A DNA stretch of 64,000 nucleotides from an uncultured Candidatus Saccharibacteria bacterium (GCA_964630055.1 CAZVRA010000001.1:91569-155568), one strand, 5' to 3'; counted from the stretch's first letter, positions 8,103-30,891 are shown. Translations and numbers: made by a program. The notes: generated by a model from the sequence alone, not told the origin.

Positions 8103-10046
8103 ATGGGTAAAATTATCGGAATCGATCTTGGTACAACCAACAGCGCTATGGCGGTTATGCAGTCGGGCAAGGCCGACATTATTGCCAATAGCGAGGGCAA
8201 CCGTACCACGCCTAGCGTGGTGGCCATCAACAAAAATAAGGAGCGCTTGGTGGGTCAAGTTGCTCGCCGCCAACAGGTTACTAACCCAAAAAACACAATT
8301 TACGAGGTCAAGCGTTTAATTGGCCGCCGCTGGGAAGACAAAGAGGTTCAGCGTGACCTCAAGCTGCTAGGCTACGAAATTGTCAAAAGCGGCAGTGGCG
8401 TTAAGGTTAAGATGGGCGGCAAAGAATACAGCCCCGAAGAAATCAGCGCCATGATTTTGGGCAAGCTAAAGGCCGACGCCGAAGCATTTTTGGGCCAAAA
8501 AGTAGACGAGGCAGTCATTACCGTGCCGGCTTATTTTGACGACGCTCAGCGCCAGGCTACCAAAGATGCCGGCAAAATTGCTGGCCTCGAGGTCAAGCGC
8601 ATAATTAACGAGCCAACAGCGGCCGCACTGGCCTACGGCTTAGACAAAGGCAGCAAAAAAGACGAAAAAATCGTTGTCTTTGACCTGGGTGGTGGTACCT
8701 TCGATGTGTCCATTCTGGAGCTAGGTGATGGTGTCTTTGAGGTAAAAAGCACCAATGGCGACACGCATTTGGGTGGTGCCGACTTTGACCGTGTCCTGGT
8801 TAACTACTTCGCCGACGAATTTAAGCGCGAGCAGGGCATAGACATCCGCGAAGACAACGCCGCTATGCAGCGCCTACGTGATGAGGCCGAAAAGGCCAAA
8901 ATTGAGCTTAGCTCTACTAACGAAATCGACATCAATTTGCCATTCTTAACGGCCGACGCCGACGGGCCAAAACACTTTGAGCTTAAGTTGACTCGTGCCA
9001 AGCTAGAAAGTTTGGTTGGCGACCTGGTGGACAAAACCGCTGTGCCATGCGAAAAGGCGCTTAAAGATGCCGGACTAAAAGCCAGCGACATAGATGCAGT
9101 TGTTTTGGTGGGTGGTATGACCCGCATGCCAGCCGTGCAGGCCAAGGTTAAAGAGATATTTGGCAAAGACCCAATGCAGGGCGTTAACCCCGACGAAGTA
9201 GTGGCCATTGGCGCCGCTATTCAGGGTGGCGTGTTGCAGGGCGACGTCAAGGACGTACTGCTGCTAGACGTCACCCCACTGAGCCTAGGTATAGAAACTT
9301 TGGGCGGTGTGGCAACCAAGCTAATCGAGCGCAACACGACTATTCCGACCAGTAAATCCGAGGTCTTTAGTACAGCCGCCGACAACCAGAACCAGGTAGA
9401 AATTCATGTTGTCCAGGGCGAGCGCGAATTTGTGACAGACAACAAGTCGCTTGGTCGGTTTGTGCTAGACGGCATTCCTCCAGCTCCGCGCGGTGTGCCT
9501 CAGATCGAAGTTACCTTTAACATCGACGCCAACGGTATTTTAAACGTTACCGCCAAGGACAAGGGCACTAGCAAGGAACAAAGCATTACTATCCAAAATA
9601 GTGGCAACCTAGACAAGTCCGAGGTCGAGAAAATGGCCAAAGAAGCCGAGACTCATGCCGAAGAAGACAAGAAAAAACGCGAGGCAATCGATGCTCGCAA
9701 CCAGCTAGACAGCGCTATTTACCAAGCCGAAAAAATGAAGTCCGACAACAAAGATAAGCTGGACGAAGCCGACGTTAAAAAGTTGGACGAAGCCGTCGAA
9801 ACTGCCAAAAAGGCAGCTGGCGACGAAGCCGCCGACAAAGATACGTTGGAGGCCGCAGCCAAGGCGCTAACAGAGGCAATTATGCCAATTGGTGCCAAAA
9901 TGTACGAAGCTGCCAGTAAAGCCGAAGAAGCCGCCGAGGCCGCCAAAGAAAAAGACCAAAAATCCGACAGCGACTCAGGCTCAAAGGCTAAAAGTAAAGA
10001 CAAGGACGAGCCAGTCGAAGGCGAAGTGGTAGACGAATCCAAATAA
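8103..10046 (+). CDS. dnaK: chaperone DnaK (Hsp70)
   Basis: [48 protein letters not shown] upstream. Confidence 0.98.
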
Positions 10047-10071
10047 ATTGTCTTTCTGCCGCGACGCTAAA

Positions 10072-10106
10072 AAAAGCCGCCCCAAATCCGGGCGGCTTTT
10101 GCTTTT
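10072..10106 (+). terminator. rho-independent terminator after dnaK
   Basis: AAAAGCCGCCC-caaatcc-GGGCGGCTTTT followed by GCTTTT. Confidence 0.8.
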
Positions 10107-10175
10107 AGGGCCAATCACATGCCCGGTATATGCTATACTGAATAAAGTTATAAGCATAAACACAGTTGGATTTAT

Positions 10176-13070
10176 ATGCTGACTAAGGGCTTTTATAGGA
10201 TTAGGGTAGATAAGCTAGCAAAAATAACTCTGGCTGGTGTTTTTTTGTTTGGCGTTGTACTAGGTTCTTTGAGCAATTTGGTTTGGACGGCCGCCAGGCC
10301 AAAACTCGCAAAGGCCCAGTCAGCCCAGCCGACCCTGCCACGGCTTCAGTTAACAGAACTAGGTACTCACCCCCAAGCGGCGGCTCAGCCAACTACCGAT
10401 GGCAAAAGCATTAACAGCCTCAAGGTTTTTGACGGCAAGCTTTTTGCTGGTTATGGCGACTACCAAAACAACACTGGGCCAATTATCATAAACCCTTTTA
10501 ACCTAAGTACTAATACTTTTGAGGGCCAGGCCCTAAGCGTGCCCAGCGAAGCGATTGGCAACTGGACGGTTATAAACGGCAGCCTTTATGCAACTACAAT
10601 TGATCCTAATTGTTCCAAAACCTGCCCTGCCGGCTATGCCAAATACACGCCGGGCGGGAGTTGGTCCATGCAAACACCAATCAATGCCGAGCACGTCTTT
10701 GCTATGGCTAGCTTAAACGGTAGCGATTTGTGGCTTTTTGGATCTGCCGGTGGCTACACTTCTACCGCTTGGCGGAGTACCGATGGTGGCAGCACTTGGG
10801 CGGTGGTTCGCACCTATGCCAACGAATCATCGAGTAATCTAGAGCGTTATTACTGGGGCATTGCTACCGGCGGCAAAATGTATATGCAATCAAACTTGTA
10901 CGGATTTCAAAACCCAGTCGAGGCGTTTGACGGCACAAATTGGACCTCTAACACATCGGTGCCAGCATTGTGCGATACAGGCACTGCCGGCAGGGGGCCA
11001 TCGATAATTGTTCACCAGTCTAAAATAATTTGCGCTGGTAGCTCATGGAACCAAGCCCAGGCAATGGTGTATGATGGCAGCACGGCAACACAGCTTGATA
11101 TCAACAGTTCTGTTTGCGGCAATTCTGTTTATATGCTGCAAGAAGCTGATGGCTATGTTTATGCACTCTGTCGGTCCTGGTATGACCAGAATTACTCAGA
11201 CAGAGCTTCTAAGATTATGGATTCGCGCATAATCCGCAGCAAAGATTTAAATAACTGGCAAACAATAACCACCTTTGACAGTAATTTAATGAACAGTAAT
11301 TTTACCATCGAATCATTCGCCATAGATGGCTCGACGCTCTATGTGGGCGATAATAATTCCAAAATATATAAAACTACCTTTGACGCTGGCGCCGACACTA
11401 CACCGCCCACGGGCAGCGTAACTACCTCGGCCAAAAATGGCCTGGCCGAAGGATCGTTTACAATGAGTGTTGACGCCAACGATGCCAAAGGTGATGTTTA
11501 CGTTGAGTATTACATTAATGGGGTTGTTCAGCCGATGCCATATAGTTATCGGCCTACCAACGGTGGAAACAACACTGCTACTAACAAAGACTATTATTCG
11601 CCATTTACTTTTGACATAACTAACCGTTATTTGCAAAACGATTGGCAGTACCCACCCGACAAAAACCTGGTATTAACCGCCAAAATTACCGATGGCAGTG
11701 GCAATACCACCACTACTCAGCCGGTCACGGTTCACTTTGCCAAGCCAGACATCAATGTGAGTTCGCTAACTACAAGTGGTATAAATTTAGGCGCGCCTAT
11801 GGCGACCGACCAAGCCGGCAACATTTGGACTCCAGACATCAATCCCTTTGTTAGCGAAGAGTTACTTGGTTTTATAAAAGTCGACCCGGCAACCGGCGTT
11901 ACTACAAAATATCCGTTTGCTTCTTCGCACCCCAGCTATGCATATGTTTATGATGGTGGTTTTACAGTAGACAAAACAGGCCATATTTGGTTTGTGGATT
12001 GTCGAAGTAGCCAGCTGCACAAGTTTAACCCCCAAACAAAAGCCGAAGTTGTTAGCGACCTGCCGTTTAGTGTTTGTACCGATTCAGGTACCCAAATGGT
12101 GCTTGGAAGCGGCTCCGACATGCTGATACTAAAGCGAGGTAGCGACCAAATTGTTCGGGTCAATATAGAAACCGGTGCTTTGTCGCGCCAAGATATACCC
12201 AGCAATTATTTAGTTACAACATTGGAGCCAGACAATAGCGGCCAGTTTATGGCGGCTTATGCTACCGGCCAACCAGGCAGTGGCAGTAGCGTAGATGTCG
12301 GCTTAGCCAATATTAATGCTGCTGGGGTGTTTTCGTCCTTTTACGAAGAACCTTACGATGCTAATTCTATTTTGGGTAATGTGTGGTCTATCATTAAAGA
12401 CCAAGCTGGCAATATTTGGATAAGCAGCGATACCGAGCGCCAGACCGATGGACCGCTAATATCTGTGCTGACCGTTTCTGGCCAAAAAAAGACCTTTGGC
12501 ACAGTGCTGGGTGGGAGTTATGGTCATTCGGCTAGGTTGCATTTTACGCCTTCGGGCATGTTGGTCGGGCAAACTGCCGACGGTGCCGTAGTAATAATTG
12601 ACCCAGGCACAGGTAATATAAAGAAGCATTATGTTTTAAGTACGGTGCTGCCGGGTGGAGAAGTCATTGCTTACCCTGGAATGTTTTCCTCATTGGTCAT
12701 AGACAAACAGGGGGTCATGTGGGTTAATGATATTATTGGACAGCGGCTAGTTAAGATTTCGGTATTGTCGGCTGCCACCGGCTCGGTCAATGCCCTGGTC
12801 GACGGCGCGGCCAGTAGTAACGGCTCGCTACTTGCCACCACTGGGGCTTATCTTTTGGCAACTCCTCTGGTGGCGATTGTTTTGGGCACCATAGCCTACA
12901 CATTTTTTGACTACCGGCGCTGCAAGCGAGGCCTGTCCGGCAGCCCCGGCTCGGAGGCCTATACCTACAGGCACCACTTGCAGGTGGTTAGTTTTCCGCT
13001 GTTTAGATACAGGCTGGTGTTGGCTTTTGACAAAATTGTCAAAACTAACGGCAAAATATCGCGCTACTAG
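10176..13070 (+). CDS. very large surface protein (964 aa) with BNR/Asp-box, Ig-like and beta-propeller-type repeats and an LAxTG-like C-terminal signal
   Basis: N-terminal anchor ITLAGVFLFGVVLGS. Asp-box STDGGSTW. Repeated DQAGNIW / DKTGHIW / DKQGVMW blades. C-terminus LLATTG + hydrophobic AYLLATPLVAIVLGTIAYTFF + DYRRCKR. Confidence 0.7.
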   Translation: MLTKGFYRIRVDKLAKITLAGVFLFGVVLGSLSNLVWTAARPKLAKAQSAQPTLPRLQLTELGTHPQAAAQPTTDGKSINSLKVFDGKLFAGYGDYQNNTGPIIINPFNLSTNTFEGQALSVPSEAIGNWTVINGSLYATTIDPNCSKTCPAGYAKYTPGGSWSMQTPINAEHVFAMASLNGSDLWLFGSAGGYTSTAWRSTDGGSTWAVVRTYANESSSNLERYYWGIATGGKMYMQSNLYGFQNPVEAFDGTNWTSNTSVPALCDTGTAGRGPSIIVHQSKIICAGSSWNQAQAMVYDGSTATQLDINSSVCGNSVYMLQEADGYVYALCRSWYDQNYSDRASKIMDSRIIRSKDLNNWQTITTFDSNLMNSNFTIESFAIDGSTLYVGDNNSKIYKTTFDAGADTTPPTGSVTTSAKNGLAEGSFTMSVDANDAKGDVYVEYYINGVVQPMPYSYRPTNGGNNTATNKDYYSPFTFDITNRYLQNDWQYPPDKNLVLTAKITDGSGNTTTTQPVTVHFAKPDINVSSLTTSGINLGAPMATDQAGNIWTPDINPFVSEELLGFIKVDPATGVTTKYPFASSHPSYAYVYDGGFTVDKTGHIWFVDCRSSQLHKFNPQTKAEVVSDLPFSVCTDSGTQMVLGSGSDMLILKRGSDQIVRVNIETGALSRQDIPSNYLVTTLEPDNSGQFMAAYATGQPGSGSSVDVGLANINAAGVFSSFYEEPYDANSILGNVWSIIKDQAGNIWISSDTERQTDGPLISVLTVSGQKKTFGTVLGGSYGHSARLHFTPSGMLVGQTADGAVVIIDPGTGNIKKHYVLSTVLPGGEVIAYPGMFSSLVIDKQGVMWVNDIIGQRLVKISVLSAATGSVNALVDGAASSNGSLLATTGAYLLATPLVAIVLGTIAYTFFDYRRCKRGLSGSPGSEAYTYRHHLQVVSFPLFRYRLVLAFDKIVKTNGKISRY

Positions 13071-13111
13071 TTTTCCACAGGTTATTGTTTGCAGACTTGA
13101 CAAGCATAAGC

Positions 13112-13122
13112 GGGGGGGGGGG
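13112..13122. repeat. homopolymeric G11 tract in the intergenic region
   Basis: Eleven consecutive G, counted directly. Flanked by TTGACA (13097-13102) and TAACAT (13123-13128). Confidence 0.95.
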
Positions 13123-13169
13123 TAACATCGAAGAGTACATTAACAGTATGTGTAGGTATCTTAGGGCAG

Positions 13170-13205
13170 AGCAGTTTTGGTTAACTGCTATGCTTTGGTT
13201 TTTTC
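13170..13205 (+). terminator. hairpin plus T-rich tail (candidate terminator of the 10176..13070 gene, or an attenuator)
   Basis: AGCAGTT-ttggtt-AACTGCT, then atgcTTTGGTTTTTT. Confidence 0.5.
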
Positions 13206-13317
13206 CGTAAGTGGCGCCCATTTTGGTCTTATCAGCTTTGGCAAAACATTGTGGTATTTACAACATACAAATAATTTAAGCTTTTATTAAGTAAACAAGG
13301 AAGCAAGGAAACAAAAA

Positions 13318-14931
13318 ATGACAACCAAAAGACCCCAAGCCAAAACAATCTCGGTCCTAGCAGGCGCCATCCGCCGCACTGGCTTTTTGGCCATAGCAAC
13401 CGTCCTATTCGCCTCCGGCCTGGCCGTCCTGGCTCCCGCCAAAAAAGCCAGCGCCGCCGCGTGTGTAAAGAATTATGGTTCTTACGGTGGAAGCTCTGGA
13501 TTCACGCCTTTTCAATTAGTTGGCGGAATTGGCTCATCACTAGACTCTAGCGTTCAATCTTATGATACTGAATTTACGCCAAAAGGAACGGGCTATGCCT
13601 ATAGCATTAGGGCAAGTATTGTTAAATCCGATTGTACTGATCCTGGTCAATCTGTAGATATAAGTATCTACAAGGGGGGCGATGGTACAATTAAAGCTTA
13701 TGCGTATGATGGAAATCGCACAACTCCTTATGCTGCGACTACTGACTATAAGAATATAAATTCGGCTTTTACGCCAAGCCCAAGCGGCAGCACCGGTCTT
13801 AGTTTAAGCTCATCTGCACTTATTAATTCAGATAATAATACAGCAGTCAGATTCCGACTGGATATATCAACTAGCGGCTGGCTTAAGGTTTCGTACTTTG
13901 TAGGCAGTGGAGCAGAGCAAGTCATAGGTGAGTTTGCGATTCCAGCTAGTGCAGTATCGTTCCTTGGTCATGACTATGGTGACTTCAGTTTAGACCTTCA
14001 ACGCAAGGGTGCGACTACCTGTTCTCAGGTAACTGGTAGCGCAAATATGGACGTTAGGGTATTGAGTGGGGGAACCGCCGCAGTGCCCTTAACTATATAC
14101 ACAGCCGACGCCCAGTCTAATATGTATACGTGCTATGCTATGGTTAAATCATCCTTTAACGCTACTTCTAAGGTTGCCACGCTGGCATACGATGTCGCCG
14201 GAGCTAGCGTGCCAAAAGGGGTAAAGAATGATCTTAATGTGCTGTCAGATCCTGGATTACCTTTTGTCTATAGTGCCTCGCTGGAGCTTGGTACCAGTGG
14301 GGATAGCCCGTGGCCGAAACAAGAATTTATTAGCTCAACCTCTGCCGACCAGCAACTCTACTTTTTTGCCCAGAACTATAATGGCAGCAAGACTATGGCG
14401 AAGGGGGTTATTTATCCAATCGCTGGTGGTATTTTTGACATGAGCTCTAGCGATGTTGACCTAAAAGACGTAAAAATGGATGTTGACGGCATGGCATTTA
14501 AGTCCTTGGCGCACAACCTGGGAGCCTTAACAAAAGACAAGACATTTACCTTGTTTGTACCCTATAGGGACGGCGATAAATCGGTTGGGATATGCCCTGG
14601 CGCCAGCACATTAGATACGGTAACCGATAAATGCGACAAGGTTTACTACTTGGCCGACGGTATGACCAAGACCAGTGCAGACAGCAGTACAATTCCTAAA
14701 GGCGTCAATGTTAAAGCCAATAAAGTTAAAATTGGCAATACAAACTTCTGGCGCATAGATGGTCTAAGCGGTACCGGCGGCTTTAGCTCACCAGCCGTGG
14801 CCGCAGCGCCAGCTACTGGTGCGATTCAGCTGATTACTTCTAACCCAATTGTTGCTGGTTTGGCCACTTTGGCGGTTGTAGGGGCCTTGGCGGTTCTGCG
14901 CCGCAAGTATGTGCCGGCAGTTAACAAATAG
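13318..14931 (+). CDS. surface protein (537 aa) with sortase-type C-terminal sorting signal
   Basis: SD AAGGAA 7 nt upstream. N-terminal signal/anchor FLAIATVLFASGLAVLAPAKKASA. C-terminus AAPATG...VAGLATLAVVGALAVL-RRKYVPAVNK (xPxTG + TM + basic tail). Confidence 0.7.
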   Translation: MTTKRPQAKTISVLAGAIRRTGFLAIATVLFASGLAVLAPAKKASAAACVKNYGSYGGSSGFTPFQLVGGIGSSLDSSVQSYDTEFTPKGTGYAYSIRASIVKSDCTDPGQSVDISIYKGGDGTIKAYAYDGNRTTPYAATTDYKNINSAFTPSPSGSTGLSLSSSALINSDNNTAVRFRLDISTSGWLKVSYFVGSGAEQVIGEFAIPASAVSFLGHDYGDFSLDLQRKGATTCSQVTGSANMDVRVLSGGTAAVPLTIYTADAQSNMYTCYAMVKSSFNATSKVATLAYDVAGASVPKGVKNDLNVLSDPGLPFVYSASLELGTSGDSPWPKQEFISSTSADQQLYFFAQNYNGSKTMAKGVIYPIAGGIFDMSSSDVDLKDVKMDVDGMAFKSLAHNLGALTKDKTFTLFVPYRDGDKSVGICPGASTLDTVTDKCDKVYYLADGMTKTSADSSTIPKGVNVKANKVKIGNTNFWRIDGLSGTGGFSSPAVAAAPATGAIQLITSNPIVAGLATLAVVGALAVLRRKYVPAVNK

Positions 14932-15049
14932 TTAGTAGTTTGTGCCGGTTACCAGCTGGCAACCGGCGAGGCAAATTGTTGCCCAAAAATAAAATTCTAA
15001 AACTTTAAAAACCTAAAATTAACACCCAAATTTAAAATCAAAAAATAAA

Positions 15050-16186
15050 ATGCAACCAAGTCGAATATATTTAGATGATGCTGTTTTTGCGTCGCGCCTC
15101 AGGCGGGAATTCCCCCGGCGCCAGTTTGGCGCTGGCGGAGCGCCATACTCTGGCGCCGCCAAGCCGCGGTCCCAACGGTCCTTTAGCTCCGAGCCTTTTG
15201 TTGGCCAGGGTGTTCTGCTGTCGCGACCTTTGCCCGGGACGCCGCCAAAAACTGCGCCTAACCCTTCGCCCAAAGCTGTGGCAGTGGCGTCGGCCCAGAT
15301 GGTAGACGGCATAGTAATGCGTACTCCTTCGGTTGCCCAAACTGCGACCGTCCAACCTGCAACTGCCCAAGGAACAACGAAAAATGTGTTGCAGCCAGGG
15401 CGGACCAATCCGGTTGTTGGTAGGCCACAAATACCCAGTCCGCCGGAATTATCTGTCATGGCCAAGCAATTTGCGCCCCGGGTTGCGCCCCAAAACTCCA
15501 AAACACCGGCCGCATCCACTCCAAAGCAAAAAGGTTGGCGCAAAGTACTGGGACACGCCTTAACCGGCTTTAGTTTACTGGTGCTTATGGCCGGCAGCTA
15601 CGTAGTAACAAGCAGCTATTTTACCAACAAGCACGTGGCGGCTCAGGTTCAGCAGTCATCTAGCCAGCAGGAAGATGCTAACAACAGCTTGCCCTCCGAA
15701 GAACCACCTAGCGAAGACATAGGCAAATATGCTGTTGCGGCCGACATGCCCAAGTTGGTGTCTATCCAAAAGCTGGGGGTCAAGGCGCGAGTTAGGCGCA
15801 TGGGCGTCGACAAAACAGGGGCCATTCAGGCGCCGCGCAATATTTACGACGCCGGCTGGTACGATGGCAGCGCCAAGCCTGGCGAGCCAGGCACAGTTTT
15901 CTTGGATGCTCATGTGTCGGGGCCGACAAAACCTGGGGTTTTTCACGACATCAAAAAACTGGCCGCTGGCGATACCATCACCATAGAAATGGGCGATGGC
16001 AAAACCCACACATATAGCGTGGTCAGCCAAAAGTCCTACCCCAGAGATCAGGTTAACATGCAGGAAGCGCTGGTGTCGGCTAAACCTGGCAAGCGAGCCT
16101 TAAACATGATGACATGTAGTGGCAAGTTCGATTCTAAGACTCAAAGTTATTCCGAGCGCCTAGTTGTCTTTGCGGTAGAGCAATAA
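15050..16186 (+). CDS. sortase (class E/F-like) with ~165-aa Pro-rich N-terminal extension
   Basis: C-terminal domain has His (FLDAHVSG), Cys (LNMMTCSG) and Arg (SERLVVFA). Single TM LTGFSLLVLMAGSYVV. N-terminal part is P/A/Q-rich low complexity. Confidence 0.8.
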   Translation: MQPSRIYLDDAVFASRLRREFPRRQFGAGGAPYSGAAKPRSQRSFSSEPFVGQGVLLSRPLPGTPPKTAPNPSPKAVAVASAQMVDGIVMRTPSVAQTATVQPATAQGTTKNVLQPGRTNPVVGRPQIPSPPELSVMAKQFAPRVAPQNSKTPAASTPKQKGWRKVLGHALTGFSLLVLMAGSYVVTSSYFTNKHVAAQVQQSSSQQEDANNSLPSEEPPSEDIGKYAVAADMPKLVSIQKLGVKARVRRMGVDKTGAIQAPRNIYDAGWYDGSAKPGEPGTVFLDAHVSGPTKPGVFHDIKKLAAGDTITIEMGDGKTHTYSVVSQKSYPRDQVNMQEALVSAKPGKRALNMMTCSGKFDSKTQSYSERLVVFAVEQ

Positions 16187-16201
16187 GCGTGCTATAATTA
16201 C

Positions 16202-16350
16202 AGCCGTTATCAAACCGGTCCAATGAATAAAGCGGCTCAGGGAGCAAGCTATGTTACGTAAACAGCTTGCACCAACCTGAGAAGTTTGGACTTTAAGCCT
16301 AATCACCGCATGGCTGGCATTAAAATGCTGCCTGGGTAAAAAAGACGGCT
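16202..16350 (+). promoter_or_regulatory. structured 5' leader / candidate riboswitch upstream of the transglycosylase lipoprotein gene
   Basis: Starts just after TGcTATAAT (-10 at 16193-16198). Closing stem AGCCGT (16202-07)/ACGGCT (16345-50). Nested stems CTCAGG (16236-41)/CCTGAG (16276-81) and GCAAGCT (16244-50)/AGCTTGC (16264-70). Hairpin GGC..GCAT-taaa-ATGC..GCC (16312-16332). Confidence 0.4.
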
Positions 16351-16437
16351 TACAATCTGATAACCCAACTAATATTAATTGGCCATTTGGCATGTTTTTG
16401 TTGTTTGGCCCTATTTATACAGAAGGGACTGTTTGCT

Positions 16438-17025
16438 ATGTCTATTGAGTCTATGGAACAAGCACCAGCAACAATACAAAATAACGAAATTGCCACTGCG
16501 ACCAATTGGCGACGCGCCGTAGCCGTGGCTGGCCTAGCCACTTCGGCACTTTTGAGCGCTGGTTGCGATGCTAGGGACGTGCCGTTTTTTCGCGAAGCCT
16601 GCGAGCAACAAGGCCAATCGGCGGATACTTGTTACAACCAGTTTAACCAATTAATCCGCCGGGCAAATGCCGTAAATGGCGGGCAGGTTGTTGACCCGGA
16701 TGCTTTTTTTGAGGCCGGTGGCTTAACGCCCGGCGAGGCCAGCGCCGCCAGACAAATTATGACCCCCGAATCTGGCATGTGCGCCTGGAAGGTCCAAGGC
16801 AAGTTTGGCGCTTGTCCACCCGCACCGCCCGCGCCGTCCAGAGTACCGAAGAGTGGCGGTTATGGTTTGTGCCAGTCAACTCCGCCCCAAAAAATGGCTT
16901 CCGCCGGTCCAGACTGGGTCACTAACCCTTACACCCAACTAAAATGGTGCGATTCGTATGTAAAAGGACGCTACGGTGGTTGGTTGCAAGCGTTGGGTTA
17001 TCGCCGTGCCCACGGAAATTTCTAA
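16438..17025 (+). CDS. putative lipoprotein, lytic transglycosylase-like (SLT/IsaA-type C-terminal domain)
   Basis: RRAVAVAGLATSALLSAG|C lipobox-like signal. C-terminal PESG...GGYGLCQSTPPQKM...DWVTNPYTQLKWCDSYVKGRYGGW resembles transglycosylase-like domains. ATG 16438 (AAGGGA upstream) preferred over TTG 16387. Confidence 0.5.
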   Translation: MSIESMEQAPATIQNNEIATATNWRRAVAVAGLATSALLSAGCDARDVPFFREACEQQGQSADTCYNQFNQLIRRANAVNGGQVVDPDAFFEAGGLTPGEASAARQIMTPESGMCAWKVQGKFGACPPAPPAPSRVPKSGGYGLCQSTPPQKMASAGPDWVTNPYTQLKWCDSYVKGRYGGWLQALGYRRAHGNF

Positions 17026-17068
17026 CCTGGTTTGATGCTCGGCGGCTACCTGCGGTATACTAATTTAT

Positions 17069-17794
17069 ATGCCAAAAGATATACCGCGGAAAATGCTAAA
17101 GAAAATACCGACAGTAAAAAGAAAAGTAAAAACCGCAAAATCGTTGAGCGCCAGCATAAAGCTTGGGCCGACTGCTAAAACCGTTAGCAAAACCAGTTGG
17201 CTGGACCGATGGTACCCCAGAATACTGCTAGTTTTGGCGGTTATTGGTTTTGTGGCTTCGTTTGTGCTGACGCTAGAGAAGATTGCCATTATCAAGAACC
17301 CGCAACACCATTTAAGCTGTAGCATTAATCCGCTTTTGTCTTGCGGACCGATCATTACGTCGCCGCAGGCTAGTGCCTTTGGATTCCCCAACCCCATTAT
17401 CGGCTTGTTTGCCTTTAGTGTGCTAATTTGTGTGGCCATTACCATGATGGCTGGCGCAGTCGTGGACAAAACCAAACAGTGGTACTGGCGGCTATTTGTG
17501 GCTGGGCATTTGTTTGGCCTGGGCTTTGTGCTTTGGCTAATTCACGAAGCTGTTTTTGAGCTAAAGGCGCTGTGCATTTACTGCATGGTGGCCTGGGCGG
17601 TGACTTTTGCCCTAAATTGGTACGGCTATTTGTGGCTGAGCAGCACCGGTCGGCTGGTAGTTACAGGGGTGGGGCGACAGCTGCGAGACTGGGGTTTGCG
17701 CAATCACTTAGGTGTTCTGTTTTTGAGCTATCTGGCCGTTTTTGCAGTTATTTTGCTGCAATTTAGGGATTACTTCGAAAGTTTTTTGCACTAG
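17069..17794 (+). CDS. vitamin K epoxide reductase (VKOR) family membrane oxidoreductase
   Basis: Loop cysteines HHLSCSINPLLSCGP and CxxC in a TM helix (LCIYCMVAW). TATACT 17056-17061 lies 7 nt before the ATG. Confidence 0.8.
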   Translation: MPKDIPRKMLKKIPTVKRKVKTAKSLSASIKLGPTAKTVSKTSWLDRWYPRILLVLAVIGFVASFVLTLEKIAIIKNPQHHLSCSINPLLSCGPIITSPQASAFGFPNPIIGLFAFSVLICVAITMMAGAVVDKTKQWYWRLFVAGHLFGLGFVLWLIHEAVFELKALCIYCMVAWAVTFALNWYGYLWLSSTGRLVVTGVGRQLRDWGLRNHLGVLFLSYLAVFAVILLQFRDYFESFLH

Positions 17795-17817
17795 CACTCT
17801 CGACCTCAAAGTGCTAA
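17791..17817. promoter_or_regulatory. CIRCE-like inverted repeat overlapping the VKOR stop codon
   Basis: CTAGCACTC-N9-AAGTGCTAA (8/9 + 8/9 to the CIRCE consensus, correct 9-nt spacer). Confidence 0.6.
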
Positions 17818-17885
17818 AATGTACTAAGTGGCTAACAAAAGCTGCTTGTAAATTATTCTACAATGTGCTACAATTTTGCCACAGC

Positions 17886-17920
17886 ACCTCGCTTGGCATT
17901 ATTGTCTCGCGAGGTTTTTT
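17886..17920 (+). terminator. hairpin plus T6 (weak terminator or attenuator) between CIRCE-like site and NYN gene
   Basis: ACCTCGC-16 nt loop-GCGAGGT followed by TTTTT. The large loop lowers confidence. Confidence 0.4.
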
Positions 17921-17957
17921 GATATAAAAATAATTTCTTAATTTCTGGAGATATTTA

Positions 17958-18557
17958 GTGAGAAGAGTTGTTTTAGTGGATGGCGAAAATCTCAACTATG
18001 CAATACGCAAGATGATAGGATCAAGCAGTAAGCCGGCTAGCAGAGCTGTACTTATAGGCTATAACTATCGTGGTCTTATTGATAATGTTCTAGAAAATGA
18101 GCAATATGATTCTGTATTATTTTTTGGGGCTAAGTTGCGCCGCTATAAACACAGCGAAGAGTTATCGAAGAAATGCGAAAAGGCTATCCACCTGCAATCC
18201 ATATTAGTAAACCAGCTAAATAAACAAGGTATCCAATTTATAAAAGCTGGATATTTGCGAGCCCGAGAAACCAAATCCTGCAAGCAGTGTGGCGACAGCA
18301 GATGGGCTCTAATAGAGAAGGGTGTAGATGTCGCATTAGCTGTGCGGATAGTAGAAGAGGCAAAAAAAGACACAGAAATAGTGGTTATTAGTGCCGATAC
18401 CGATGTATTGCCGGCTATAAAAACAGCTGCCGTTAAGGGTGCCAAAGTTACGGTGGTAAGCTACGAAGACTGTGTACCCCTGGCATTGGTGAAGAATGCG
18501 TCGTTATCTAGAGTCATAACTCGTAATATGGTAAAAAAGGCGGCCAAACATGAGTAA
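17958..18557 (+). CDS. NYN-domain (LabA/DUF88-like) putative RNase with inserted zinc-ribbon-like CxxC
   Basis: [15 protein letters not shown] at the N-terminus and [14 protein letters not shown]...KVTVVSY, typical of NYN/Lab[10 protein letters not shown] insert. GTG start with GGAG 9 nt upstream. Stop overlaps the dnaJ start. Confidence 0.7.
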
Positions 18558-19674
18558 ACGCGATTATTACGAAGTGCTTGGCGTGGGCAAAAAAGCCAGC
18601 GACGACGAGATCAAAAAGGCTTTTAGGCGAGCTGCAGTTAAGCATCACCCAGACAAAGGTGGCGACGAAGTAAAATTTAAAGAGATCAACGAAGCCTACG
18701 AAGTTTTAAAGGACGAAAAAAAGCGCCAGCGCTACGATCAGTTTGGTCATGCCGGTGTCGGGACCAGCGCTGCCAGCGATGGGCCGACTGGCAATCCTTT
18801 TGGTGGCGCTGGCGCGGGCGGCCAGAACGTGCACTTTGACTTTGGTGATTTGGGGTTGGGCGACATTTTTGGTAGCTTTTTTGGTGGCGCGGGCGGCATG
18901 GGTGGTTCTGGCCGCTCCGGCGGCCGCGCGGCGCGCGGCCGCGACGTCGAAACAGCCATAGAGCTAACTTTTGAGGAAGCAATTTTTGGCATAGAGCGCG
19001 AAATAAACTTAAACCTGGCCGACACCTGCGAACACTGCAAAGGCACGACTGCCGAGCCAGGCTCCGAGATCAAAACTTGCGACACCTGCAAGGGCAGCGG
19101 CCAGGTGCACCGCGTAATGCAAACGGTTTTTGGCAACATTCAGCAAGCTTCGGTCTGCCCAACCTGCAAAGGTCGCGGCAAAATTCCCGAAAAAGTTTGT
19201 ACGGTTTGCCACGGCAAGGGTGTACAACCCAAAAACCAGAAGATTCGTCTTAAAATTCCGGCTGGCATAGACGATGGCGCAACCATTCGCTTGCGGGAAC
19301 GTGGCGAGGCTGTAGCCGATGGCCCCAAGGGCGACCTGTATGTGCATGTCAGGGTCAAGGCCCACAAACAGTTTACTCGCGAAGGCGACCTAATACTCAG
19401 CAGTCAGCATATTGGCATGGTCGATGCAGCTCTGGGCACCGAAATAGATGTGGCCACTGTCGATGGCAATGTGCGCATGAAGGTGCCGGCTGGTACGCAG
19501 AGCGGCACAGATTTTAAGCTATCGGGCCATGGAGTTCCACACATGCGTGGTGATCGCCGTGGCGCTCATATTGTGACCATAATTGTCGACACACCGACCA
19601 AATTGTCGCGTCGCCAGCAAGAATTGCTGCAAGAATTTGGGGCTGCTTCAGGACGCCGCGGGTTCTTCAGGTAG
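18550..19674 (+). CDS. dnaJ: co-chaperone DnaJ
   Basis: J domain DYYEVLGV...HHPDKGG, G/F region, four CxxCxGxG zinc motifs ([32 protein letters not shown]). Confidence 0.97.
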
Positions 19675-28658: not shown

Positions 28659-28856
28659 ATGGGACTTAACATGTCTGGAACAAACACAGGTTCTGCAGTA
28701 TTGTCGGCAACTACTATGGTTGGCGGTATCGCTGTTTTGCCAAACACTGGCGGCAACGTATTGCTAACAATCTTGAGTGTTGTTTGCATCGCAGCCAGCG
28801 CTGTAGTTTTGGTTAGCTTTGGCCTTTCTCGCCTAGTTGGCAAAACTCTTCGCTAA
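28659..28856 (+). CDS. mini LPXTG protein (61-65 aa): LPNTG + TM + basic tail with almost no mature domain
   Basis: MGLNMSGTNTGSAVLSATTMVGGIAVLPNTGGNVLLTILSVVCIAASAVVLVSFGLSRLVGKTLR. TATAAT at 28598-28603. Alternative start ATG 28671. Sortase gene 90 nt downstream. Confidence 0.5.
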   Translation: MGLNMSGTNTGSAVLSATTMVGGIAVLPNTGGNVLLTILSVVCIAASAVVLVSFGLSRLVGKTLR

Positions 28857-28948
28857 GCAGATAAACCACCAAACGTTAGTTTTATTAAAACCAAGGCTTT
28901 ACAACAATATGTTGGTAGTCTTTTTCAGGTTGTAGAAAAAAGGATAAT

Positions 28949-29575
28949 GTGGTGAGGACAACTTTTAGCTCTAGACGCCGTATAAAGGCGTTATGCTTGA
29001 TTGGAATTTTTCTACTGTCGCTAACGGCGATTGGTGTTTATTTTTGGTGTCGCCATAATGATTATTTAGCGCAAAAAAATCGACTGAATCAGGTAGTTAA
29101 AACCACCGATCAACGCTTTGCCGCTGCTTCCAAAACTGCCGCCGAGCCTCTGATTGAAGGACGGCCAACCAAGCTGGTTATTCCTAGGCTGGATTTGGTT
29201 GTATCAATTGTGGACGGACATTACATACCCGAGCAGCGCACCTGGACGGTCGCTGCCCAGGCCGCCAATTATGCCACTAACTCCAGCCTTAGCAACAATA
29301 AAAGTGGCAAAACATTTATTTATGGTCATTGGTACGACTCTGTGCTTGGCCGGACTAGCCGTTTGCAGCCCGGGGACGAAGTGCTTGTATACACCGACAA
29401 TAACCATGTTTTTAAATACTACTACCAGACGCAAGTGTCGCTAAAACCGACCGACACCTGGATTTTTGACGCTGCTAATTTGGGCGGCAAGCCCGGCTTA
29501 CAGCTAATGACCTGCGAGGGGGTGTGGGCCCAGAATAGGCGGTTAATGAAATTTGATCTAGGGGCGGCAGTATGA
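28949..29575 (+). CDS. sortase (208 aa)
   Basis: N-terminal TM ALCLIGIFLLSLTAIGVYFW. His in TFIYGHW, Cys in LQLMTCEG, Arg in QNRRL. GTG start after AAGGA. Confidence 0.8.
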   Translation: MVRTTFSSRRRIKALCLIGIFLLSLTAIGVYFWCRHNDYLAQKNRLNQVVKTTDQRFAAASKTAAEPLIEGRPTKLVIPRLDLVVSIVDGHYIPEQRTWTVAAQAANYATNSSLSNNKSGKTFIYGHWYDSVLGRTSRLQPGDEVLVYTDNNHVFKYYYQTQVSLKPTDTWIFDAANLGGKPGLQLMTCEGVWAQNRRLMKFDLGAAV

Positions 29576-30891
29576 GCGCGTCTTTAATAATGCACTATTT
29601 TGTATACTTTGTTTTGTGCATTAGCATAATCAATATATTACGCCTAATGGTTATGATGGTCGGCTCCGACATTTACGAGGTCAAAAAACAGCTCAAATTG
29701 CGTCAGCAGAGGCGCCAGTTAAATAGTGGTCAAAGACCGTATCGACCCTATATTTCTGTTATTATTCCGGCCCACAACGAGGAGCTTTGCATAATCCGCA
29801 CAGTTAAGTCGGTTCTGGCTAATGACTACGCTTACAAGCAGATTATTGTGGTTGATGATGGCTCAAAGGACAAAACCCTAGGTAAGCTTAGGTATTTTAA
29901 GAAAAAACACCAACTGAGCAAGCTGGTGATTGTGCACCAAAAACAGCAGGGTAAAGCCGAGGCAATCAATAACGCGCTGCGCAACCACGTTCGGGCTAGC
30001 TTGGTAATGGTGCTTGATGCCGACTCTATATTACACCCAGAGGCTCTGACTCGTATGGTTCGTCATTTCGAAGATCCACTGGTGGGGGCGGCAGCATCAA
30101 ACGTTAAAGTTATAGATTCGCCGCGTCTGCTGACTCTGGCCCAACGTTTGGAGTATGTTGTTTCGTATCGGATGAAGCGTGCTTTAACTACTATGAATAT
30201 GGAGTACATTATTGGCGGCGTGGGCTCGACTTTTCGCCGGTCTATTGTCCGCCAGGTAGGCTTTTTTGACAATGACACCATGACCGAAGACATTGAGTTT
30301 ACCATGAAGGTGATTGCCCAAAAGGGTAATAGGCAGCACAAGGTGACTTTTGCTGCTGACGTTTTGGCCTACACGGAAGCTGTGCTAACCTTTGGCGCAC
30401 TGCTAAGACAACGCTTTCGTTGGAAGTATGGTCGTATGCAGACGTTTGTTAAAAACCGTCAAATATTTTTTAGTCGAGACAAAAAGCACACCAAGCGCCT
30501 AACTTGGGTTAACCTGCCATTTGTGGTTTTTAGCGAAGGACTACTGCTACTGGACCCCTTACTGAGCGGTTTTGTTTTGTTTGCCGCCATACGTTTTGGA
30601 GGTGTTATATCACTACTCAATATATATGTTGTGGTAACGCTATTTTGTTTGTTGAATGTTTTGGGCGAGTCAACCGAGTCGTTGCGTTCCAAGGCTAAGC
30701 TAATTATGCTAGTGCCTTTTGCCTATCCATTGCTATTAATCATGTCATCGGTAGACTTTTTTGTGCTGGTCAAATCTTTGGTTAAGTTCCCGGCAATTTT
30801 GCGGGGTAATTCTGGCAATTCTATTTGGCAGCCAGTTGCACGATCAGGTAGCGCGGCCAATTTACATAACAATCAATTAGGGATATCCTAA
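29572..30891 (+). CDS. processive family-2 glycosyltransferase (PNAG/chitin/cellulose-synthase-like membrane synthase)
   Basis: ISVIIPAHNEE, VVDDGSKDKT, VLDADS, TEDIEF and QRFRWKYG (D,D,D,QxxRW signature). TM helices at both ends. ATGA overlap with the sortase stop. Confidence 0.85.
   Translation: MSASLIMHYFVYFVLCISIINILRLMVMMVGSDIYEVKKQLKLRQQRRQLNSGQRPYRPYISVIIPAHNEELCIIRTVKSVLANDYAYKQIIVVDDGSKDKTLGKLRYFKKKHQLSKLVIVHQKQQGKAEAINNALRNHVRASLVMVLDADSILHPEALTRMVRHFEDPLVGAAASNVKVIDSPRLLTLAQRLEYVVSYRMKRALTTMNMEYIIGGVGSTFRRSIVRQVGFFDNDTMTEDIEFTMKVIAQKGNRQHKVTFAADVLAYTEAVLTFGALLRQRFRWKYGRMQTFVKNRQIFFSRDKKHTKRLTWVNLPFVVFSEGLLLLDPLLSGFVLFAAIRFGGVISLLNIYVVVTLFCLLNVLGESTESLRSKAKLIMLVPFAYPLLLIMSSVDFFVLVKSLVKFPAILRGNSGNSIWQPVARSGSAANLHNNQLGIS

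What the first reader, a model, noticed from the sequence alone, without database searches (positions are those of the whole stretch)
10176..16186. Sortase locus with two giant candidate substrates carrying non-canonical signals (LATTG, APATG)
Seen in sequence. The 964-aa protein (Asp-box STDGGSTW, Ig-like module, repeated DQAGNIW-type blades) ends with LLATTG + hydrophobic helix + DYRRCKR, but then continues for about 45 further residues. The 537-aa protein ends with AAPATG...TM...RRKYVPAVNK. The next gene is a sortase (TCSG Cys, DAHV His). Established knowledge: class E sortases of Actinobacteria prefer LAxTG rather than LPxTG. Inference: this is a dedicated adhesin-display locus. In an epibiotic or surface-attached organism these would be prime host- or substrate-binding candidates.
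Basis: partly seen in the sequence, partly recalled or inferred. Interest (0 to 1): 0.55.

Follow-up and report, generated by a model that had tools for sequence, protein, structure and literature searches.

The report
Saccharibacteria sortase with two wall-anchored proteins

Summary
The organism is a Saccharimonadales (Saccharibacteria) bacterium.

The sortase at 15050-16186 is class F-like, not class E. Its family is widespread in Saccharibacteria. In 56 of 65 loci with enough flank, a gene within 1 kb ends in [A/V/K/S/T]-P-[N/D]-T-G, a hydrophobic helix and a basic tail.

The 537-aa protein (APATG) fits this rule. Its only two known homologues (DPETG, APDTG) also sit beside such a sortase. 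I take it to be the cognate substrate.

The LATTG of the 964-aa protein is also a conserved signal: L, A and G are invariant in 14 related proteins, while the flanks have diverged. However, LAxTG genes are not consistently linked to any sortase type, so the processing enzyme is unresolved. The 46-residue C-terminal extension is unique to the window copy.

The window also holds a second, unclassified sortase (28949-29575). It lies in a conserved cassette between a ~60-aa LPNTG mini-protein and a GT2 glycosyltransferase.

This is a new member of a known kind, of moderate interest.

The parts
10176..13070 (+). Gene for the 964-aa secreted surface protein. It has an N-terminal signal/anchor helix (aa 11-39), an N-terminal beta-propeller with an Asp-box (about aa 56-405), an Ig-like domain (about aa 408-525), a C-terminal beta-propeller (about aa 526-865), and then the sorting signal.
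   Evidence: ORF. AlphaFold2 model with pLDDT 79.9 and pTM 0.73. Foldseek matches to double-propeller plus Ig ectodomains (BT4663/BT4673, PorZ, GH74) and to Vgb lyase (TM 0.76 on the C-terminal propeller). Weak Pfam hits to Reg_prop, SGL and Big_7. Domain limits are read from the model's secondary structure and are approximate.
12831..12845 (+). LATTG pentapeptide of the 964-aa protein (LAxTG-type sorting motif).
   Evidence: Position. L, A and G are invariant in 14 related proteins against diverged flanks.
12846..12929 (+). Hydrophobic helix AYLLATPLVAIVLGTIAYTFF followed by the basic stretch DYRRCKR of the 964-aa protein.
12930..13067 (+). The 46-residue C-terminal extension after the basic stretch. 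It is unique to this copy, is not conserved, and is predicted to be cytoplasmic and left behind after cleavage.
   Evidence: The window protein has 58 residues after the TM window, against 7-24 in 13 homologues. pLDDT is below 50.
13318..14931 (+). Gene for the 537-aa secreted protein of unknown fold. It has a signal peptide (probable AxA cleavage site near aa 44-47, inferred from the sequence) and six invariant cysteines, and is the cognate sortase substrate.
   Evidence: ORF. No Pfam or NCBIfam family. Only two homologues in 5.8 billion clusters. Alignment. Both homologues are adjacent to a sortase.
14806..14820 (+). APATG pentapeptide of the 537-aa protein (xPxTG-type sorting motif).
   Evidence: Position. 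P498, T500 and G501 are invariant. It fits the family-wide partner consensus [AVKST]-P-[ND]-T-G except at position 3.
14821..14928 (+). Hydrophobic stretch AIQLITSNPIVAGLATLAVVGALAVL and basic tail RRKYVPAVNK of the 537-aa protein.
15050..16186 (+). Sortase 1, class F-like. It has a proline-rich cytoplasmic N-terminus (aa 1-165), a moderately hydrophobic membrane segment (about aa 168-190) and a catalytic domain (aa 229-376; His288 at nt 15911-15913, Cys356 at 16115-16117, Arg370 at 16157-16159).
   Evidence: Pfam Sortase 1.6e-21. NCBIfam class F 117.8 bits against class E 51.1 bits. Family alignment. Residues checked. The start codon is supported by the conserved N-terminal motif.
16387..17025 (+). 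Secreted protein with an aggregation-promoting-factor C-terminal-like domain (context gene).
   Evidence: NCBIfam NF052397 6.2e-18, above its cut-off.
17069..17794 (+). VKOR-family membrane oxidoreductase (context gene). It probably supports disulfide formation in the cysteine-containing surface proteins.
   Evidence: Pfam VKOR 2.7e-37. Six invariant Cys in the 537-aa family. The VKOR / disulfide / sortase link in Actinomyces and CPR is described in PMC6744442.
28659..28856 (+). Mini-ORF of 65 aa (probable start at Met5, nt 28671) with LPNTG, a hydrophobic helix and a basic tail. It is the likely substrate of sortase 2.
   Evidence: Homologous ORFs of 58-65 aa lie upstream of sortase 2 genes in seven other loci, with L-P-x-T invariant. 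The ORF is called as a gene in L128.
28949..29575 (+). Sortase 2, 208 aa, not assignable to classes A-F, with His127, Cys189 and Arg197.
   Evidence: Pfam Sortase 4.8e-14, 52.6 bits. No NCBIfam class model above 24 bits. The family has 771 representatives. Invariant H/C/R.
29572..30891 (+). PgaC/IcaA-like GT2 glycosyltransferase that overlaps the end of sortase 2 by 4 bp. It is a conserved partner of sortase 2.
   Evidence: A GT2 lies directly downstream of sortase 2 in most related loci.

Best explanation
The region encodes a sortase-dependent cell-wall display system of a Saccharibacteria bacterium.

Both large proteins are exported through N-terminal signal peptides. They are held in the membrane by a C-terminal hydrophobic helix and basic residues. 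A sortase then cleaves them between Thr and Gly of the pentapeptide and links the Thr carboxyl to peptidoglycan, which is the standard sortase mechanism.

The 537-aa protein (APATG) is the cognate substrate of the adjacent membrane-anchored class F-like sortase. In Saccharibacteria this sortase family recognises xP[N/D]TG-type signals in which Leu is rarely the first residue.

The 964-aa protein has two beta-propellers and an Ig-like domain. It carries a second conserved signal type, LAxTG, and is also a sortase substrate. The neighbouring class F-like sortase is the single most likely enzyme (about 45%). Sortase 2 in the same window, or a third sortase elsewhere in the genome, remain real alternatives.

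The nearby VKOR probably supports disulfide formation in these cysteine-containing exported proteins.

Shown: the gene content, motif conservation, gene linkage, sortase class affinity and the fold of the 964-aa protein. Inferred: cleavage, wall attachment, the enzyme-to-substrate assignment and any ligand-binding role.
For: - The sortase domain and its catalytic His/Cys/Arg are present.
- Class F is the best-matching class model for all 30 family members.
- 476 relatives were found, and all 80 listed are from Saccharibacteria/Patescibacteria genomes.
- In 56 of 65 loci an xxxTG + TM + basic ORF lies within 1 kb of the sortase. Position 2 is Pro in 66 of 87 cases, and most of the rest are spurious short ORFs. 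Position 3 is N or D in 65 of 87. Such ORFs lie a median of 28 bp from the sortase, against 4278 bp for TM-tailed ORFs without the motif.
- The 537-aa family has three members, all adjacent to this type of sortase, with P-x-T-G and six Cys invariant.
- The 537-aa family shares only its C-terminal ~75 columns, the signal region, with the usual PATR partners (hhalign probability 91.5%).
- LAxTG is conserved in 14 proteins.
- A second LAxTG orthologue lies 443 bp from a class F-like sortase, among six APNTG/APSTG paralogues.
- Some full-length homologues of the 964-aa protein end in [AST]P[NK]TG.
- The 964-aa model is confident and has an extracellular ligand-binding-like architecture.
Against: - There is no biochemical evidence of any kind.
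- The sortase scores below the NCBIfam class F cut-off (117.8 against 166), so its class membership is not formal.
- APATG has Ala at position 3, where partners usually have N or D.
- The LA and xP signals are strictly separated. There is no Pro at position 2 in 14 of 14 LAxTG proteins, and Leu is the first residue in only 2 of the partners of sortase 1. This argues for separate enzymes rather than one relaxed enzyme.
- Four of six LAxTG gene contexts have no class F-like sortase nearby, and one lies 8 kb from a sortase 2 cassette.
- The 964-aa protein has an atypical 46-residue extension after its basic residues.
- The 537-aa structure model failed (pLDDT 38.5), so its function is unknown.
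Confidence: 0.7

Rival explanations
1. The locus is not one functional unit. The 537-aa protein belongs to the adjacent class F-like sortase. The LAxTG signal of the 964-aa protein is read by a different sortase, and its position next to sortase 1 is incidental. That enzyme would be either sortase 2 (28949-29575, whose partners start with Leu: LPxTG) or a third sortase outside the window, for example the classical TLxTC type seen in L041.
For: - L and A are invariant in 14 of 14 LAxTG proteins, while partners of sortase 1 have Pro at position 2 and almost never Leu at position 1.
- Sortase 2 partners are LPxT[G/A] in 27 of 27 loci.
- One LAxTG gene lies 8 kb from a sortase 2 cassette, and three have no sortase within reach.
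- A third sortase type exists in Saccharibacteria.
- Class E sortases are the known LAxTG enzymes (PMC8225981).
Against: - Two of six LAxTG genes are next to class F-like sortases.
- No LAxTG ORF was found directly beside any sortase 2 gene in 41 loci.
- The third sortase type is absent from the window and from all LAxTG loci held.
- No class E-like sortase was seen anywhere in the window.
Confidence: 0.4
2. The C-terminal regions are plain transmembrane anchors. The pentapeptides are incidental and are not cleaved, so the two proteins are simply membrane-tethered.
For: - Some family members end in a plain TM + KKKK without a pentapeptide (P0062, P0063; also P0075, P0076, P0078, P0080).
- The 964-aa protein has a long tail that is atypical for a sorting signal.
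Against: - The motif columns are invariant while neighbouring columns have diverged.
- Motif-bearing ORFs lie a median of 28 bp from a sortase, against 4278 bp for motif-less TM-tailed ORFs.
- The gene pair is conserved in three of three genomes.
Confidence: 0.06
3. The sortase is a pilus-polymerising enzyme and the two proteins are pilus subunits or tip adhesins.
For: Sortase genes clustered with several signal-bearing genes are typical of pilus loci in Gram-positive bacteria (established knowledge).
Against: - The class C model scores only 23.8 bits.
- The sortase has no DP[WFY] lid motif, and neither protein has a YPK pilin motif or an E-box.
- Propeller proteins of 964 aa are unlike pilins.
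- Most related loci have a single partner gene.
Confidence: 0.03

Closest known systems
Class F sortases of Actinobacteria (NCBIfam NF033748; the only characterised member is the Propionibacterium/Cutibacterium acnes housekeeping SrtF)
   Same: It is the best-matching sortase class for the window enzyme and all 30 relatives. Both have a membrane-anchored catalytic domain with a His-Cys-Arg triad.
   Different: The window enzyme scores below the curated cut-off (117.8 against 166). P. acnes SrtF takes LPXTG (PMC8225981), whereas the partners here have A/V/K/S/T instead of Leu at position 1. The enzyme is found in Saccharibacteria. Most family members have a long proline-rich cytoplasmic N-terminus with a conserved N-terminal motif.
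Class E sortases and their LAXTG substrates (Streptomyces SrtE1/E2 with chaplins, Corynebacterium SrtE/SrtF, Actinomyces oris SrtA)
   Same: The 964-aa family carries an LAxTG signal identical in form to class E substrates (PMC8225981).
   Different: The window holds no class E sortase. The class E model gives 51 bits for sortase 1 and 20 bits for sortase 2.
Dedicated sortase / single-substrate gene pairs, such as SrtB-IsdC in Staphylococcus aureus and the class GN 'marine' sortase with its adjacent target protein (TIGR03784)
   Same: One sortase gene lies next to one conserved substrate gene that carries a variant pentapeptide.
   Different: The sortase family and the motifs are different. 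The resemblance is in organisation only and is recalled from established knowledge. The class GN model scores 23.9 bits.
Variant proline-containing sorting motifs such as (S/P)PXTG of Clostridioides difficile SrtB and NPXTG
   Same: The core is xPxTG, with a non-Leu residue tolerated at position 1. Such variants are already used in substrate searches (PMC13251363).
   Different: The preferred first residues here are A, V, K, S and T, and position 3 is strongly N or D.

Membership tests
Sortase (Pfam PF04203, cysteine transpeptidase) | Sortase domain match above the Pfam gathering score | tested here: met
   Sortase 1 scores 76.8 bits against a cut-off of 26.6. Sortase 2 scores 52.6 bits.
Sortase (Pfam PF04203, cysteine transpeptidase) | Catalytic His, Cys and Arg in conserved positions | tested here: met
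   H288, C356 and R370 in sortase 1; H127, C189 and R197 in sortase 2. All fall on invariant or nearly invariant columns.
Sortase (Pfam PF04203, cysteine transpeptidase) | N-terminal membrane anchor that places the catalytic domain outside the cell | tested here: inconclusive
   Sortase 2 has a clear TM segment at aa 14-32. Sortase 1 has only a moderately hydrophobic segment at about aa 168-190 (GFSLLVLMAGSYVV), below the 1.6 Kyte-Doolittle threshold I used. No dedicated topology predictor was available.
Sortase (Pfam PF04203, cysteine transpeptidase) | Transpeptidase activity on the sorting signal | not testable with these tools
   This needs a biochemical assay.
Class F sortase (NCBIfam NF033748) | Score at or above the curated cut-off of 166 bits | tested here: not met
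   The window enzyme scores 117.8 bits. The best E-value among 30 relatives is 7.1e-37. Class F is nevertheless the best class for all 30, hence 'class F-like'.
Class E sortase (NCBIfam NF033747) | Score at or above the curated cut-off of 160 bits | tested here: not met
   51.1 bits for sortase 1 and 19.9 bits for sortase 2.
Class C (pilus) sortase | Class C model match, a lid motif (DPW/DPF/DPY), and substrates with a pilin motif and an E-box | tested here: not met
   23.8 bits against a cut-off of 160. No lid motif, YPK motif or E-box was found.
Cell wall sorting signal (LPXTG-type), 537-aa protein | N-terminal signal peptide; pentapeptide ending in TG; hydrophobic stretch; short basic C-terminal tail | tested here: met
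   Hydrophobic N-terminus at aa 23-41 with conserved A-x-A-A. APATG is followed by 26 mostly hydrophobic residues and RRKYVPAVNK at the very C-terminus. The first residue is Ala rather than Leu.
Cell wall sorting signal (LPXTG-type), 964-aa protein | N-terminal signal peptide; pentapeptide ending in TG; hydrophobic stretch; basic residues | tested here: met
   N-terminal helix at aa 11-39. LATTG is followed by a 21-residue helix and DYRRCKR. The motif is conserved in 14 proteins.
Cell wall sorting signal (LPXTG-type), 964-aa protein | The protein ends shortly after the basic residues | tested here: not met
   46 further residues follow. Thirteen homologues have 7-24 residues after the TM window, against 58 here.

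The most novel reading that the evidence does not exclude
One reduced epibiont-type genome runs at least two, and possibly three, separate sortase 'address codes' side by side:
- xP[N/D]TG, read by a class F-like sortase with a dedicated partner.
- LAxTG on large double-propeller proteins.
- LPNTG on a ~60-aa mini-protein with no signal peptide. Its gene is locked into a cassette with an unclassified sortase and a PgaC-like glycosyltransferase, which hints that a short peptide is joined to the wall or to a GT2-made glycopolymer.

Under this reading, the class F-like enzymes of Saccharibacteria would be the first class F sortases with a defined physiological substrate, and the double-propeller protein would be a host-surface glycan binder.
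Probability: 0.25. Interest if true: 0.6.

Novelty: new member of a known kind. Interest (0 to 1): 0.4.

Why it matters
Saccharibacteria live attached to host bacteria, and how they recognise and hold on to the host surface is still largely open. Type IV pili are the main known factor (PMC11623550).

Proteins fixed covalently to the cell wall by sortases are natural candidates for that contact. This work gives a simple sequence rule for finding them in the group: xP[N/D]TG next to a class F-like sortase, plus LAxTG and LPNTG classes. The same sortase family occurs in cultivated Nanosynbacter strains, so sortase or substrate knock-outs are feasible.

It also offers a natural substrate set for class F sortases, whose physiological roles are still described as unknown (PMC13251363).

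The mechanism itself is the standard sortase mechanism, and this particular genome is an uncultivated one, so the finding is useful but not surprising.

Tried and rejected
- BLAST of the two window proteins against 80 sortase loci found no similarity. The 537-aa protein is therefore not an orthologue of the common PATR-repeat partner. A profile comparison showed that only the signal region is shared.
- Structure prediction of the 537-aa protein failed (three-sequence alignment, pLDDT 38.5), so I ran no fold search on it. A PDB profile search gave only noise.
- A PDB sequence search with sortase 1 alone found nothing. The family profile gave only weak sortase hits, with no help on class.
- Promoter and terminator scans gave no more sites than shuffled sequence, so I make no statement on operon structure.
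- Exact look-ups of the window proteins' contig failed. The cluster look-up gave no names or accessions. I therefore could not scan the rest of the 292-kb source contig for more sortases or substrates.
- A frameshift or lost-stop explanation for the 46-residue tail was examined in three frames without a clear answer.
- The weak second sortase hit in L038 looks spurious. Those in L061 and L073 are sortase-like but match no class model.
- The pilus rival was rejected on motif and class grounds.
- Literature searches found no description of Saccharibacteria sortase substrates or their motifs. The library covers only open-access papers and preprints.

Full report
**1. What is in the sequence**

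The three ORFs exist as described: 964 aa (10176-13070), 537 aa (13318-14931) and 378 aa (15050-16186), all on the + strand. They lie between dnaK (8103-10046) and, further on, an Apf-C-terminal-like secreted protein (16387-17025), a VKOR (17069-17794), an NYN-domain protein and dnaJ (18550-19674). Base composition is unremarkable across the region.

- STDGGSTW at aa 201, and DQAGNIW at aa 545 and 742, with related blades at 599 and 843.
- LATTG at aa 886-890, then a hydrophobic helix, DYRRCKR and 46 more residues.
- APATG at aa 497-501, then a hydrophobic stretch and RRKYVPAVNK.
- Sortase His288 in DAHV, Cys356 in TCSG and Arg370.

A scan of all six frames of the window found no other long ORF with such a C-terminus.

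**2. Organism and sortase class**

Homologues of the sortase come from Saccharibacteria/Saccharimonadales, with the closest at about 50% identity over the catalytic half. A pattern scan of one genome per GTDB species found 476 stretches encoding relatives. All 80 listed are from Saccharibacteria/Patescibacteria, including cultured Nanosynbacter strains.

The window enzyme scores 117.8 bits on the NCBIfam class F model and 51.1 bits on class E. All 30 aligned relatives also match class F best, but none appears to reach the curated cut-off of 166 bits. I therefore call it class F-like.

The only characterised class F sortase, from P. acnes, takes LPXTG. The physiological roles of class F enzymes are described as unknown (PMC8225981, PMC13251363).

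**3. The signal that travels with this sortase family**

I called ORFs in all fetched loci and asked which end in a hydrophobic window followed by basic residues, and which of those have xxxTG just upstream.
- In 56 of 65 loci with at least 2.5 kb upstream of the sortase, such an ORF lies within 1 kb of it.
- The median distance to the sortase is 28 bp, against 4278 bp for TM-tailed ORFs without the motif.
- The pentapeptide consensus is [A/V/K/S/T]-P-[N/D]-T-G. APNTG is the commonest, and Leu in first position appears only twice.
- The usual partner is a PATR-repeat protein of about 550 aa ending in ...GGDGNDVVLTV...xP[N/D]TG.
- Other passengers occur with the same signal: an Asp-box repeat protein in L049, and six paralogous ~500-aa proteins in L086.

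**4. The 537-aa protein**

It has no Pfam or NCBIfam family and only two homologues in the 5.8-billion-cluster database. These end in DPETG and APDTG followed by a TM helix and basic tail. Both sit directly next to a class F-like sortase, one upstream and one downstream of it.

In the three-way alignment (34-39% identity), P, T and G of the motif are invariant, and so are all six cysteines. Conserved cysteines fit an exported, disulfide-bonded protein, and they make the nearby VKOR meaningful. The VKOR / disulfide / sortase link is noted for Actinomyces and CPR in PMC6744442.

A profile-profile comparison with the PATR partners aligns only the last ~75 columns, which are the signal region (probability 91.5%). 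So this is a different passenger on the same address. The structure model was too poor to use (pLDDT 38.5).

I conclude that this protein is the cognate substrate of the adjacent sortase.

**5. The 964-aa protein**

The AlphaFold2 model is good (pLDDT 79.9, pTM 0.73). It shows an N-terminal helix, a beta-propeller, an Ig-like domain, a second propeller, and a disordered C-terminal region that includes the signal.

Foldseek against the PDB returns double-propeller plus Ig ectodomains (Bacteroides hybrid two-component sensors BT4663/BT4673, PorZ, GH74 enzymes). It also returns Vgb lyase for the second propeller (TM 0.76).

Among homologues, LAxTG + TM + basic tail recurs as LAETG, LADTG, LAATG, LASTG, LARTG, LAKTG and LALTG, plus three LAxSG variants. 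L, A and G are 100% conserved in 14 proteins, while flanking columns are 14-50% identical. LATTG is therefore a genuine conserved signal.

Other family members end differently:
- Some end in [AST]P[NK]TG followed by only 3-12 residues and no helix.
- Some end in a plain TM + KKKK.

So the anchor type is exchangeable in this family.

The window copy is the only one with a long tail: 58 residues after the TM window, against 7-24 elsewhere. The tail is not conserved and is predicted with low confidence. It would stay on the cytoplasmic side after cleavage. I regard it as an idiosyncrasy of this copy, possibly a lost stop codon, though the frame analysis was inconclusive.

**6. Which enzyme reads LAxTG?**

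This is the weak point of the 'one dedicated locus' reading. I examined six LAxTG gene contexts:

| Locus | Nearest sortase |
|---|---|
| window | sortase 1, 2 kb downstream |
| L086 | class F-like sortase, 443 bp away |
| L128 | sortase 2 cassette, 8 kb away |
| L083 | none in reach |
| L129 | none in reach |
| L130 | none in reach |

The signals are also sharply partitioned. Ala at position 2 is invariant in the LAxTG set. Pro at position 2 with a non-Leu first residue is the rule for sortase 1 partners. That pattern is what separate enzymes would produce.

My rough split for the 964-aa protein:
- sortase 1: about 45%
- a sortase outside the window: about 30%
- sortase 2: about 15%
- not processed at all: about 10%

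**7. A second sortase system in the window**

An HMM built from the sortase 1 family picked up a weak second hit. The ORF at 28949-29575 is a 208-aa sortase (Pfam 52.6 bits; His127, Cys189, Arg197) that no class model scores above 24 bits. Its family has 771 representatives at 50% identity.

In 41 metagenome loci it is typically followed directly by a PgaC-like GT2 glycosyltransferase. In 27 of 27 loci with enough upstream sequence, it is preceded by an ORF ending in LPxT[G/A] + TM + basic tail.

The window has the same arrangement:
- a 65-aa ORF (28659-28856) ending in ...IAVLPNTGGNVLLTILSVVCIAASAVVLVSFGLSRLVGKTLR;
- the sortase;
- the GT2 (29572-30891), overlapping the sortase by 4 bp;
- a divergent CBM + polysaccharide deacetylase gene (26752-28497) upstream.

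Eight such mini-ORFs (58-65 aa) align, with L-P-x-T invariant and no N-terminal signal peptide. One is called as a gene in L128.

A third, classical TLxTC-type sortase exists in another Saccharibacteria genome (L041; about 68 bits on the class C, D and E models alike). It is absent from the window and from the LAxTG loci I hold.

**8. Rivals and verdict**

- **Plain membrane anchoring:** unlikely, given motif conservation against diverged flanks and the tight linkage to sortase genes.
- **Pilus assembly:** unlikely. The class C score is 23.8 bits, there is no lid motif, pilin motif or E-box, and most loci have a single partner.

The accessible literature notes that sortases are common in CPR (PMC6744442). 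I found no description of their substrates or signals in Saccharibacteria.

In kind, this is a standard sortase display system with variant signals in an understudied phylum: a new member of a known kind, of moderate interest. Its value is mostly as a rule for finding wall-anchored surface proteins of epibiotic bacteria.

Noticed in passing
window 28659-30891 (plus the divergent gene at 26752-28497): A conserved cassette: a ~60-aa LPNTG mini-protein with no signal peptide, an unclassified 208-aa sortase, and a PgaC-like GT2 glycosyltransferase that overlaps the sortase by 4 bp. A secreted CBM + polysaccharide deacetylase is encoded divergently upstream. The LPxTG ORF / sortase / GT2 order recurs in dozens of metagenome loci. 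In more distant relatives the upstream ORF is 190-390 aa.
   Followed up: partly
window 8103-19674: dnaK and dnaJ are separated by an 8.5-kb block holding the two surface proteins, sortase 1, the Apf-like protein, VKOR and an NYN protein. In the closest syntenic genomes (L049, L056; DnaK 81% identical) grpE-dnaK-dnaJ are contiguous and the sortase lies a few kb beyond dnaJ.
   Followed up: no
window 15050-15550 (sortase 1, aa 1-165): Sortase 1 has a long proline-rich (14.5% Pro) cytoplasmic N-terminal region. Its first ~25 residues carry a motif conserved across the family (consensus M...R..LD.P...GRLR...RR). Short forms of the enzyme (219-228 aa; L049, L056, L086) lack the whole region. Its function is unknown.
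   Followed up: no
L086 1-22622: This region has mobile-element genes (resolvase, Replic_Relax-like, rve integrase, DUF3800, CdiA_C toxin domain). It also holds six paralogous ~500-aa proteins ending in APNTG/APSTG + TM + basic tail, two nearly identical short class F-like sortases, and the LADTG orthologue of the 964-aa protein. It looks like an expanding, possibly mobile, surface-protein island.
   Followed up: no
P0060, P0064, P0067, P0068 (homologues of the 964-aa protein): These full-length homologues carry an extra C-terminal domain and end in [AST]P[NK]TG followed by only 3-12 residues, with no hydrophobic helix. Either the signals are degenerate, or the pentapeptide is used without membrane retention.
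   Followed up: no
L041 18550-19053 (- strand): A third sortase type in Saccharibacteria with the classical TLxTC signature (LTIYTC). It scores about 68 bits equally on the class C, D and E models and lies 8 kb from the class F-like sortase. L061 (18609-19355) and L073 (13974-14603) hold further sortase-like ORFs that match no class model.
   Followed up: partly
L069, L070, L073, L074, L078, L080 (gene ending about 34 bp upstream of the sortase ORF): In these animal-gut lineages, the ~480-aa gene just upstream of the class F-like sortase ends in F[IL]xTGAPxGLSISGTGLLIVVTVALENLRSxDSRALMxTYDDF... This is an atypical C-terminus: xxxTG, a hydrophobic stretch and then an acidic tail rather than a basic one.
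   Followed up: no
window 16387-17794: An Apf-C-terminal-like secreted protein and a VKOR follow sortase 1 directly. Together with the six invariant cysteines of the 537-aa family, this suggests that oxidative folding is coupled to surface display, as described for Actinomyces oris.
   Followed up: partly
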